DNA from: a virus
Lineage: Duplodnaviria; Heunggongvirae; Uroviricota; Caudoviricetes
IMG/VR virus record: IMGVR_UViG_2974588491_000001
Span: 250,380-314,379 of that record
DNA length: 64,000 bases
Direction: 5' to 3' (one strand)
This document shows positions 53,932 through 54,073 of this stretch, in pieces. The notes beneath the pieces were generated by a model that made no database searches, was not told where the DNA came from, and was given only the letters and a program-made list of their open reading frames with translations. Position 1 is the first letter of the stretch, and every line of letters starts with the position of its first letter. Both the position numbers and the translations under genes were made by a program.

Positions 53932-54073
53932 GGAATCTAACAGCAATTAAAAATGTTAACTAAAAAATAGCTGCCGCAAGGCTTGTAGGTTCAAGTCCTA
54001 CAAATTATGTCTTCATGAATAATGATGGTGAAAATGGTAAACACGGCTATTAACTAAACAATGGATTCCTGTA
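53932..54073 (+). ncRNA. circularly permuted class II (Leu-like) tRNA bracketed by CAGCAA element
   Basis: 3' half (AATAGCT, GCC-GCAA-GGC variable arm, GTAGG/CCTAC T-arm) precedes 5' half (GGTGAAAATGGTAAACAC, GGCTATT). Confidence 0.72.

What the first reader, a model, noticed from the sequence alone, without database searches (positions are those of the whole stretch)
53932..54073. Permuted class II (Leu-like) tRNA with a duplicated TAACTAAA at both break ends
Seen: the 3' half (AATAGCT, GCC-GCAA-GGC arm, perfect T-arm) comes before the 5' half (Leu-type D arm, GGCTATT), giving a 7-bp anticodon-stem pairing. TAACTAAA is present on both sides of the break. Inference: joining within the repeat gives a TAA-containing loop, and the repeat may record how the permutation arose (recombination or reverse transcription of a circle).
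Basis: partly seen in the sequence, partly recalled or inferred. Interest (0 to 1): 0.72.

Follow-up and report, generated by a model that had tools for sequence, protein, structure and literature searches.

The report
Leu-tRNA-shaped phage Y-like RNA
The "permuted leucine tRNA" is real as a shape. It is one of about 14 small RNAs in this giant phage that mount tRNA look-alike bodies on a shared stem-plus-ACAGCAA handle, most likely as partner RNAs of the phage's own Ro60-like protein rather than as a tRNA waiting to be rejoined.

Summary
Observation confirmed. At 53932-54073 the 3' half of a tRNA-Leu-like body precedes the 5' half. The acceptor end is closed by a hairpin and the anticodon end is open, and TAACTAAA occurs at 53957 and 54051.

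The unit is framed by an 8-bp stem (GGAAUCUA/UGGAUUCC) followed by ACAGCAA. This handle occurs 15 times in the window (1.4 expected). It carries tRNA-like bodies, T-arm-only bodies or plain hairpins, and it also sits inside three tRNA genes.

Leu-like units on such handles occur in 19 distinct phage sequences and show strong compensatory change in every variable helix. In the Serratia BF clade the acceptor stem is capped by a UUCG tetraloop. No orthologue keeps the TAACTAAA repeat. ARAGORN finds no tRNA in the proposed joined product. I found no splicing endonuclease or RtcB.

The phage encodes a DUF2828/vWA protein whose predicted fold matches Ro60. In six unrelated phages, homologues of this gene lie beside clusters of 1-6 handle RNAs. 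T4 and T5 have neither the gene nor the clusters.

Best reading: a Y-RNA-like (YrlA-like) tRNA mimic with a handle that I did not find in Rfam or in the papers searched. Binding to the protein is inferred, not shown. This scan has already noted the same handle family in this genome and in many others.

The parts
53932..53939 (+). Handle stem, 5' strand (GGAAUCUA)
   Evidence: Pairs with 54062-54069 in the minimum-free-energy fold. Eight different stem sequences in related units are all complementary.
53940..53946 (+). Conserved single-stranded handle motif ACAGCAA
   Evidence: Invariant in all 19 Leu-like units. GAATYYNNCAGCAA occurs 15 times in the window against 1.4 expected.
53947..53965 (+). 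5' junction, A-rich; holds the first TAACTAAA copy (53957-53964)
   Evidence: ACUAAAA is kept in GAP32 and BF, but the 8-mer repeat is not.
53966..53972 (+). Anticodon-stem equivalent, 3' strand (AAUAGCU)
   Evidence: Pairs with 54045-54051. Four pairs of this helix show changes on both sides.
53973..53982 (+). Variable-arm hairpin GCC-GCAA-GGC
   Evidence: G-C changes to A-U and U-A to C-G across units. The arm is absent in some distant units.
53985..54001 (+). T arm GUAGG-UUCAAGU-CCUAC
   Evidence: Invariant across units, but it was part of the search pattern.
54002..54025 (+). Acceptor-stem equivalent closed by a 10-nt loop (AAAUUAU-GUCUUCAUGA-AUAAUGA; 5 Watson-Crick pairs plus A-G and A-A)
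   Evidence: Six of 7 pairs show changes on both sides. The BF clade has CUUGUACU-UUCG-AGUACAUG.
54026..54044 (+). Positions 8-9 and Leu-type D arm (UG-GUG-AAAAUGGUAAA-CAC)
   Evidence: One mismatch to the D arm of tRNA-Leu(UAA) at 42293-42377.
54045..54051 (+). Anticodon-stem equivalent, 5' strand (GGCUAUU)
54052..54061 (+). 3' junction, A-rich (AACUAAACAA); the second TAACTAAA copy spans 54051-54058
   Evidence: An A-rich stretch ahead of the 3' strand is common to all handle units.
54062..54074 (+). Handle stem, 3' strand (UGGAUUCC) and conserved tail UGUAU
   Evidence: A tail of the form YNGU follows the stem in unrelated phages too.

Best explanation
The stretch at 53929-54074 is the gene for a stable non-coding RNA of about 140 nt. 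It is a tRNA mimic and cannot decode.

Structure. A tRNA-Leu-derived body (D arm, T arm, variable arm and a closed acceptor hairpin, which together should form the tRNA elbow) is wired in rotated order onto a conserved handle. The handle is a 7-10-bp terminal stem, the single-stranded motif ACAGCAA just after its 5' strand, an A-rich 3' junction and a YNGU tail. It stands where the anticodon loop would be.

Family. The unit is one of at least 14 handle RNAs in this phage's tRNA region.

Proposed mechanism, by analogy with Ro60 and YrlA. The handle docks the RNA onto the phage's Ro60-like ring protein (DUF2828 plus vWA, encoded at genome positions 102,737-104,251, outside the window). The tRNA-shaped body is the exposed module that recruits or occupies a host factor that recognises tRNA shape. 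The particle probably serves RNA metabolism or counter-defence during infection.

Shown here: the structure, the family, the Ro60-like fold of the protein, and co-occurrence of the gene with the RNAs.

Inferred: transcription and processing (probably co-transcribed with tRNA-Ile, which ends 10 nt upstream), binding to the protein, and the function.
For: Structure:
- Covariation in the anticodon-stem equivalent, variable arm and acceptor hairpin across 19 units.
- Eight distinct complementary handle stems.

Family:
- The handle motif occurs 15 times in the window against 1.4 expected, 14 of them on the + strand. Its cargo is tRNA-like, T-arm-only or a plain hairpin.
- The paralogue el2 at 54188-54345 and a mycobacteriophage unit both match the tRNA-like part of Rfam YrlA (31 and 38 bits).

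Protein:
- P0001 matches Pfam DUF2828 (E = 6.7e-33) and DUF7788 (E = 5.4e-43).
- The AlphaFold2 model has mean pLDDT 89.9.
- All twelve Foldseek PDB matches with E <= 0.001 that are listed are Ro60, Rsr or TROVE structures, aligned over the full length. The best is 2i91_A (E = 1.9e-8, TM 0.58). Thermus phage phiLo Ro60 and D. radiodurans Rsr are among them.

Co-occurrence:
- DUF2828 is present in all 6 tested contigs of at least 62 kb that carry a Leu-like unit.
- The base rate of the gene is 708 of 50,697 phage records, or 1.4%.
- In six unrelated phages (Felixounavirus, Fletchervirus, Pecentumvirus, Lumosvirus, Lahexavirus, Tsamsavirus) there are 4, 1, 3, 3, 6 and 4 handle units on the gene's strand, mostly within 2 kb of the gene. 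Shuffled loci give 0.2-1.2 hits per locus.
- T4 and T5 have no such gene and no clusters.

Literature:
- Ro60 with YrlA tRNA mimics (PMC4201824).
- phiLo Ro60 binds phage Y-like RNAs and host PNPase (PMC12135203).
- The Ro60-like gp130 of Bas63, which lies directly upstream of that phage's tRNA array, counters the Ppl defence system (PMC11482910).
Against: - No experiment shows that the RNA is made, what its ends are, or that it binds the protein.
- In this phage the protein gene lies about 200 kb from the RNAs, so the link here is at genome level only.
- The handle lacks the published Rsr-binding motif GNCGAAN0-1G. Rfam YrlA does not hit el1 at all, and it hits el2 only below threshold.
- Pfam TROVE does not match the protein.
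- The co-occurrence test used a home-made scan with a measurable false-positive rate and only eight phages.
- The phages carrying Leu-like units fall into only a few clades, so they are not independent samples.
Confidence: 0.65

Rival explanations
1. Handle as a processing signal. The stem plus ACAGCAA marks RNAs for cutting, excision or circularisation by an unidentified phage enzyme working with the phage's RNA ligases. The permuted and insert-bearing tRNAs would then be substrates that mature into something else, with no role for the Ro60-like protein.
For: - The same module sits inside three tRNA genes. In the unit at 47045-47169, removing 50 nt restores a perfect Lys(UUU) anticodon arm.
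- The permuted form and the insert form are rotations of one topology.
- The CBB paper reports two RNA ligases in what is probably this phage (PMC5259590).
- RtcB-like and RNA ligase genes lie near the DUF2828 gene in Listeria phage LP-125. RNA ligase genes also lie within the fetched loci of Whirlwind and LAh_8.
Against: - No tRNA splicing endonuclease was found: PF01974 scores 12.9 bits against a cut-off of 27. No RtcB was found in this phage.
- Many units carry only short hairpins, with nothing to mature.
- For el1, no joining yields a canonical anticodon arm.
- Tight linkage to a Ro60-like gene in six unrelated phages is better explained by binding.
Confidence: 0.12
2. RNase P-opened mimic. 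As reported for M. smegmatis YrlA, RNase P cuts the acceptor loop and CCA is added. This would give a two-piece tRNA-like RNA that LeuRS, which does not read the anticodon, might charge. This reading is compatible with Ro60-like binding.
For: - M. smegmatis YrlA is cut by RNase P and receives CCA in vivo (PMC4201824).
- Distant Leu-like units (L013, L017, L025 and others) have perfect 7-bp acceptor stems, followed by A and then a loop of up to about 20 nt.
Against: - In this window the acceptor has 5 Watson-Crick pairs plus A-G and A-A.
- Chen et al. found no cleavage of YrlA molecules that lack a 7-bp stem (PMC4201824).
- The BF and Yersinia orthologues cap the stem with UUCG, so an openable loop is not conserved among orthologues.
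Confidence: 0.08
3. Genuine permuted tRNA-Leu gene. As in Cyanidioschyzon merolae, the transcript ends are joined in the TAACTAAA repeat and the acceptor loop is opened, giving a decoding tRNA-Leu(UAA).
For: - The 3' half precedes the 5' half, and the body is closest to the phage's tRNA-Leu(UAA).
- An 8-mer is shared at both break ends, which happens in 1.9% of shuffles.
Against: - The joined product is not called a tRNA.
- There is no bulge-helix-bulge motif, no splicing endonuclease and no RtcB.
- The repeat is absent from all orthologues.
- The acceptor is degenerate here and UUCG-capped in relatives.
- The same frame carries non-tRNA cargo.
Confidence: 0.03
4. Inert debris from a tandem tRNA-Leu duplication followed by deletions.
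For: A tandem duplication cut in both anticodon loops would give exactly this order of halves, with loop-derived repeats at the ends.
Against: The unit is conserved with compensatory changes across very different phages, and it always sits on the handle.
Confidence: 0.02

Closest known systems
YrlA-type bacterial and mycobacteriophage Y RNAs bound by Ro60/Rsr (Rfam RF02553; Chen et al. 2014, PMC4201824)
   Same: - A modular RNA: a protein-binding stem formed by the 5' and 3' ends, plus a tRNA-like domain in the same rotated order (variable region, T arm, closed acceptor-like hairpin, D arm).
- A partner protein with the Ro60 ring-plus-vWA fold.
- Several paralogous RNAs per genome.
   Different: - The handle is stem plus ACAGCAA plus an A-rich strand, not GNCGAAN0-1G.
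- Rfam YrlA does not detect el1 and scores el2 at 31 bits against a threshold of 69.
- The protein belongs to Pfam DUF2828/DUF7788 and is not matched by TROVE.
- The body here is class II and Leu-like.
- The same handle also carries plain hairpins and sits inside real tRNAs.
- The protein gene is about 200 kb away in this phage.
Dictyostelium Class I RNAs (Rfam RF01414; Kjellin et al. 2021, PMC7919456)
   Same: - A short covarying stem joining the 5' and 3' ends.
- The conserved motif directly after the 5' strand: the Rfam consensus GaUcuC-CUUACAGCAAUuaAA ... AAAAAc ... GagAuC-UG aligns base for base with phage units.
- A variable middle and a CUG(U) tail.
   Different: - The match is below the Rfam threshold: 15.5 bits for the window unit at 57277-57330, and 18-30 bits for eight units in Aeromonas phage LAh_8, against 41.5.
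- el1 itself gives no hit.
- Class I RNAs are 42-65 nt with no tRNA-like body, are eukaryotic, and their known partner is an RRM protein.
- I did not test whether the two share ancestry.
Permuted tRNA genes of Cyanidioschyzon merolae and bulge-helix-bulge tRNA splicing
   Same: The 3' half is encoded upstream of the 5' half, and an outer helix brings the transcript ends together.
   Different: There is no bulge-helix-bulge motif, no splicing endonuclease and no reconstitutable anticodon loop, and the acceptor is closed with no discriminator or CCA context.
Two-piece (permuted) tmRNA
   Same: A circularly permuted gene for a tRNA-like RNA in bacteria and phages.
   Different: tmRNA keeps an open, alanine-charged acceptor and a coding module. 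Rfam tmRNA_permuted gave no hit on el1.

Membership tests
YrlA (Rfam RF02553) | Score at or above the Rfam gathering threshold (69 bits) | tested here: not met
   No hit on el1 at E <= 10. el2 scores 31.4 bits, on model positions 23-85 only.
YrlA (Rfam RF02553) | tRNA-like domain in the order T arm, closed acceptor-like hairpin, D arm | tested here: met
   Read directly from the sequence and supported by covariation.
YrlA (Rfam RF02553) | 5' Rsr-binding motif GNCGAAN0-1G (PMC4201824) | tested here: not met
   The 5' part reads UUCGGAAUCUAACAGCAA. The motif is absent here and in the paralogues.
YrlA (Rfam RF02553) | Encoded in a genome with a Ro60 orthologue, usually adjacent to it | tested here: inconclusive
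   A protein with the Ro60 fold is present, but it is not matched by Pfam TROVE and lies about 200 kb away. The gene and RNAs are adjacent in six other phages.
YrlA (Rfam RF02553) | RNA bound by the Ro60 protein | not testable with these tools
   Needs immunoprecipitation or a gel-shift assay.
Permuted tRNA gene (C. merolae type) | 3' half upstream of the 5' half | tested here: met
Permuted tRNA gene (C. merolae type) | Bulge-helix-bulge motif at the joined termini, and a splicing endonuclease | tested here: not met
   The junctions are 19 nt and 10 nt, with no 3-4-3 motif. PF01974 scores 12.9 bits against a cut-off of 27. No RtcB was found.
Permuted tRNA gene (C. merolae type) | The joined product is a canonical cloverleaf with a 7-nt anticodon loop and an openable 7-bp acceptor | tested here: not met
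   ARAGORN finds nothing in the joined product. The acceptor is UUCG-capped in orthologues.
Dictyostelium Class I RNA (Rfam RF01414) | Score at or above the gathering threshold (41.5 bits) | tested here: not met
   No hit on el1. Sister units score 15-30 bits.
Dictyostelium Class I RNA (Rfam RF01414) | Terminal stem, with the conserved motif directly after its 5' strand | tested here: met
   The alignment to the Rfam consensus shows ACAGCAAUUAAA in register.
ACAGCAA-handle phage RNAs (working name; no published family found) | Covarying terminal stem, then 1-3 nt, then CAGCAA, an A-rich 3' junction and a YNGU tail | tested here: met

The most novel reading that the evidence does not exclude
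The ACAGCAA handle defines a widespread and so far undescribed branch of Ro60/Y-RNA particles in phages. Its partner protein is DUF2828, and its handle has the same design as the unexplained Class I RNAs of social amoebae. In this branch, interchangeable tRNA-shaped bodies, such as this Leu-like one, are displayed to capture or mislead host factors that read tRNA shape, as a counter-defence device.
Probability: 0.35. Interest if true: 0.8.

Novelty: new variant of a known kind. Interest (0 to 1): 0.6.

Why it matters
Giant phages carry dozens of "tRNA" genes whose purpose is still debated. This unit shows that part of that territory encodes tRNA mimics that cannot decode. They are built on a common docking handle, and across unrelated phages that handle travels with a Ro60-like protein.

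If the pairing is real, it makes several things directly testable.
- It supplies candidate RNA partners for a protein family that is present in about 1.4% of sequenced phages, including Felix O1-like, Listeria P100-like and Campylobacter phages.
- It bears on how the Ro60-like gp130 of phage Bas63 counters a host defence, because the RNAs could be part of that mechanism.
- It offers a lead on the function of Dictyostelium Class I RNAs.

It also warns annotators that tRNA finders both miss these genes and mislabel them.

Tried and rejected
- Pfam TROVE in the phage genome: no match. The protein was found only through DUF2828, a lead taken from earlier notes of this scan and then tested here.
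- Sequence searches of P0001 and of its alignment against PDB chains: nothing meaningful.
- RtcB: absent. The EndA-like hit of 12.9 bits at window ~60689-60790 is treated as noise.
- Minimum-free-energy folding gives only a weak signal: el1 z = -2.0, el2 z = +0.1. The evidence for structure rests on comparison between sequences.
- Covariance model R1, built from short-cargo units, is too tied to the GAAUC stem. It mis-pairs long-cargo units with the T loop, so I dropped it for cross-phage work.
- My first stem-plus-CAGCAA scan had as many hits on the wrong strand as on the right one (62 against 63). It became usable only after I also required an A-rich 3' junction.
- In alignment A3 the handle helix is one column out of register in many rows, so its 70% pairing understates the true value. 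The list of stems is the better evidence.
- A UGUU/AACA mini-helix between the two junctions is not conserved in the BF clade.
- Sigma-70 promoter and terminator scans found nothing on the + strand next to el1.
- I did not attempt protein-RNA complex prediction, because the tool does not take RNA.

Full report
**Source.** The window is positions 250,380-314,379 of a 378,379-bp phage genome with direct terminal repeats. Its nearest database relatives are Cronobacter phage GAP32, Xanthomonas phage XbC2, Serratia phage BF, Erwinia pEa_SNUABM phages and Yersinia fHe-Yen9 phages. The window therefore probably comes from that phage or a near twin. ARAGORN finds 24 tRNAs in the window and none at the finding.

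**Observation.**
- AATAGCT lies at 53966-53972.
- The arm GCC-GCAA-GGC lies at 53973-53982.
- A perfect T arm lies at 53985-54001.
- A Leu-type D arm lies at 54026-54044.
- GGCTATT lies at 54045-54051.
- TAACTAAA lies at 53957-53964 and at 54051-54058.

The two halves match the phage's tRNA-Leu genes better than any other tRNA of the window. The best match is tRNA-Leu(UAA) at 42293-42377, whose D arm differs by one base. No open reading frame of 30 codons or more on the + strand overlaps the unit.

The unit is closed by an outer 8-bp stem, GGAAUCUA (53932-53939) with UGGAUUCC (54062-54069). ACAGCAA follows the 5' strand directly, and UGUA follows the 3' strand. About 115 nt downstream lies a paralogue, el2 (54188-54345). 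It has the same frame but a class-I-type body. Rfam's YrlA model matches el2's T arm, acceptor hairpin and D arm at 31.4 bits, below the 69-bit threshold.

The 5' frame GAATYYNNCAGCAA occurs 15 times in the window against 1.4 expected, and 14 of the 15 are on the + strand. In the whole genome the copies cluster at 276-309 kb. Two arrangements exist.
- In eleven units the order is 5' frame, cargo, 3' frame. The cargo is a tRNA-like body (el1, el2 and 55573-55840), a T arm only (three units at 51.2-52.0 kb) or a short hairpin.
- In three tRNA genes (26169-26292, 47045-47169 and 52282-52400) the two frame halves sit in the opposite order, as a 50-57-nt insert in the anticodon stem.

The two arrangements are rotations of one topology. 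In one the handle is open and the acceptor is closed. In the other the acceptor is open and the handle is closed.

**Comparative evidence for the fold.** Orthologues of el1 sit after tRNA-Ile in GAP32, XbC2, Kaldavass, pEa_SNUABM_47, BF and both Yersinia phages. A pattern scan of IMG/VR for CAGCAA, then this T arm, then TGGTGAAA returned 29 loci. Twenty-six of these are true units and three are false (a T-arm unit followed by a normal tRNA-Leu).

I tested nineteen distinct sequences against the proposed structure.
- 85.5% of cells are paired, against 37-48% with slid partners.
- Seventeen pairs change on both sides.
- The covariation score is 0.385 against 0.170 in shuffles, and 0 of 500 shuffles reach it.
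- The signal comes from the anticodon-stem equivalent (4 pairs), the variable arm (2 pairs) and the acceptor hairpin (6 pairs).
- The T arm and most of the D arm were fixed by the search pattern and count for nothing.

The handle stem takes eight different sequences, all complementary: GGAAUCUA, UUGGAAUUCA, AGGUUUCU, AGGAUAAUA, UUAGAAUGC, UAGGUUCC, AAGAAUUCA and AAGAAUCUA. G-U pairs in these stems fit an RNA read from the + strand.

**Why it is not a tRNA in waiting.**
- Joining within TAACTAAA gives a 7-bp stem and an 8-nt loop, and ARAGORN calls no tRNA in that product.
- The acceptor equivalent has only five Watson-Crick pairs here. In the BF and Yersinia clade it is an 8-position stem (7 pairs and one U-U mismatch) capped by a UUCG tetraloop, which leaves no room for a discriminator base or CCA.
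- The junctions (19 and 10 nt) do not form a bulge-helix-bulge motif.
- The genome gives only a 12.9-bit hit to the tRNA-intron endonuclease domain (cut-off 27) and no RtcB.
- The same frame carries hairpins with nothing to mature.

The 8-mer repeat turns up in 1.9% of shuffles of the two junction segments. GAP32 has TCAACACAAAC at the 3' copy. Kaldavass and XbC2 differ at both copies. The BF clade and the distant contigs have no repeat. The permuted layout on the handle is shared by all these phages, so it is older than their divergence. A repeat confined to one genome therefore cannot be a relic of the permutation. Both junctions are constrained to be A-rich, which makes a chance match easier.

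**The protein partner.** Pfam TROVE finds nothing in the genome. Notes from earlier runs of this scan pointed to DUF2828, and I tested that lead.
- The genome has one 504-residue open reading frame at 102,737-104,251. It matches DUF2828 (E = 6.7e-33) and DUF7788 (E = 5.4e-43), with a weak vWA hit.
- The GAP32 homologue is named "RNA-binding protein" in NCBI.
- An AlphaFold2 model from 47 homologues has pLDDT 89.9 and pTM 0.89.
- All twelve Foldseek PDB matches with E <= 0.001 that are listed are Ro60 structures, aligned over the full length: Xenopus and human Ro60, D. radiodurans Rsr, and the Thermus phage phiLo Ro60 and TROVE entries. The best is 2i91_A (E = 1.9e-8, TM 0.58). Isolated vWA domains follow.

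The phage therefore encodes a protein with the Ro60 fold.

**Co-occurrence.**
- Of ten contigs picked only because they carry a Leu-like unit, all six of at least 62 kb carry DUF2828. The four fragments below 52 kb (13-24% complete) do not.
- Homologues of P0001 occur in 708 of 50,697 phage records, or 1.4%.
- I fetched the surroundings of the gene in six unrelated phages: Felixounavirus bumzen, Campylobacter CP81, Listeria LP-125, Mycobacterium Whirlwind, Aeromonas LAh_8 and Bacillus MrDarsey. In five of the six the gene abuts a tRNA array or a tRNA gene.
- I scanned these loci for a stem of at least 7 bp, 1-3 nt, CAGCA[AC], an A-rich junction and the complementary strand. The scan found 4, 1, 3, 3, 6 and 4 units on the gene's strand, mostly within 2 kb of the gene. 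The opposite strand gave 0-2, and shuffles gave 0.2-1.2 per locus.
- The stems differ completely between phages, while ACAGCAA and the tail are kept.
- In Whirlwind, whose gene is annotated "Ro-like RNA binding protein", the middle unit is a permuted tRNA-like body. It hits Rfam YrlA at 38 bits, again in the tRNA-like part only.
- Bumzen and MrDarsey also carry permuted tRNA-like bodies, of other types.
- T4 and T5 are rich in tRNAs and in stable RNAs of unknown function. They have no DUF2828 and no clusters.

The scan is crude. On this genome it recovers 9 of the 11 permuted-order units, with 1-3 stray hits per strand. The sample is also small.

**Relation to known systems.**
- *YrlA.* The closest known system is Ro60 with YrlA-type Y RNAs. 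Their tRNA-like domain has the same rotated order. It is modified by TruB and DusA, and in M. smegmatis, where the acceptor has 7 bp, it is cut by RNase P and receives CCA (PMC4201824). The phage units differ in the docking module. YrlA has GNCGAAN0-1G and the phiLo RNAs have CGAA (PMC12135203), whereas these units have stem plus ACAGCAA.
- *Class I RNAs.* The handle matches the consensus of the Dictyostelium Class I RNA family in Rfam (GaUcuC-CUUACAGCAAUuaAA ... GagAuC-UG). All scores are below the 41.5-bit threshold: 15.5 bits for the window unit at 57277-57330, and 18-30 bits for eight units upstream of the Ro-like gene of phage LAh_8. Class I RNAs are described as a short covarying stem plus an 11-nt motif next to its 5' strand (PMC7919456).
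- *Literature.* Full-text searches for DUF2828, for CAGCAA with Ro60, and for phage Y RNAs found no description of this handle. The nearest statements are two. A review notes that some jumbo phages have a TROVE protein that works with a tRNA-like partner (PMC7824862). A preprint reports that the Ro60-like gp130 of phage Bas63, which lies just upstream of the tRNA array, counters the Ppl defence, and guesses that some of the annotated tRNAs are Y RNAs (PMC11482910). That gp130 is the homologue of P0001 is my inference from the gene's position in Felixounavirus bumzen. I did not test it.
- *Other tRNA mimics.* A 2026 preprint on other bacterial tRNA mimics concerns different motifs.

**Mechanism.** I commit to the following account.
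1. The unit is transcribed on the + strand, probably together with tRNA-Ile, since no promoter-like site lies next to it.
2. It is trimmed to about 140 nt.
3. It folds into a tRNA-like L with a closed acceptor end.
4. It is held through its handle by the Ro60-like ring.
5. The tRNA-shaped body then acts as tether, gate or decoy towards a host factor that reads the tRNA elbow.

Steps 1, 2, 4 and 5 are inferred. Only the fold (by covariation) and the gene-RNA association are shown.

**Verdict.**
- The element is one member of a handle-RNA family that this scan has already reported from this genome and from many others. The single finding therefore adds a class II, Leu-like body type and evidence that this body type is conserved, rather than a new system.
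- I rate it a new variant of a known kind (Ro60/Y-RNA tRNA mimics), with interest 0.6.

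Noticed in passing
window 54188-54345: Paralogue el2: the same handle carrying a class-I-type permuted tRNA-like body (T arm GCAGG-UUCGAGU-CCUGC, D arm UAGCUCAGUUGGGAGAGC). Rfam YrlA matches at 31.4 bits on model positions 23-85. Orthologues are present in all relatives examined.
   Followed up: partly
window 55573-55840: A 260-nt handle unit. Its T arm (about 55590-55612) and D arm (about 55795-55815) are separated by roughly 170 nt in the acceptor-loop position.
   Followed up: no
window 54350-54524: A 175-nt stretch between el2 and the next gene is 82% identical to Salmonella phages 7t3, Munch and SE_PL and to Klebsiella phage fENko-Kae01, although the flanks are not conserved. 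It may be a further non-coding RNA.
   Followed up: no
window 54086-54180: The spacer between el1 and el2 is conserved with GAP32 and ends in GCUGCGGCUAYCAAC, which resembles the end of tRNA-Ile just before el1. In XbC2 and Kaldavass an 84-86-residue open reading frame (plus a further stretch in XbC2) occupies this position instead.
   Followed up: no
window 47045-47169, 26169-26292, 52282-52400: Three tRNA genes carry the handle module, with its halves in reversed order, as a 50-57-nt insert in the anticodon stem. ARAGORN misses all three. For the first, removing 50 nt after C27-G28 restores CGAGC-CUUUUAA-GCUCG, the anticodon arm of Lys(UUU). The third scores 47.6 bits with Rfam tRNA despite its insert.
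   Followed up: partly
window 51184-51314, 51373-51500, 51853-51965: Handle units with only a T arm. The first two follow an extended -10 element, TGTGGTATAAT. Their 5' leader is complementary to the loop of the hairpin after the T arm, and the pairing covaries between the two units (AUAAGGCAA/UUGCCUUAU and UAGCAACA/UGUUGCUA). This points to a pseudoknot or an alternative acceptor-like helix.
   Followed up: no
L044 (Aeromonas phage LAh_8) 18413-19925; window 57277-57330: Handle units align to the Rfam Dictyostelium Class I RNA model (RF01414) at 15-30 bits, below the 41.5-bit threshold, with ACAGCAAUUAAA and the CUG tail in register.
   Followed up: partly
L042 (Listeria phage LP-125) 19944-26510: In this phage the DUF2828 gene is followed within 5 kb by RtcB-like and RNA ligase genes, and it is preceded by three handle units and the tRNA array. 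This is an RNA-repair neighbourhood.
   Followed up: no
window 39616-39688: ARAGORN labels this tRNA 'Pyl'. Its anticodon is CUA, so it is an amber-reading tRNA.
   Followed up: no
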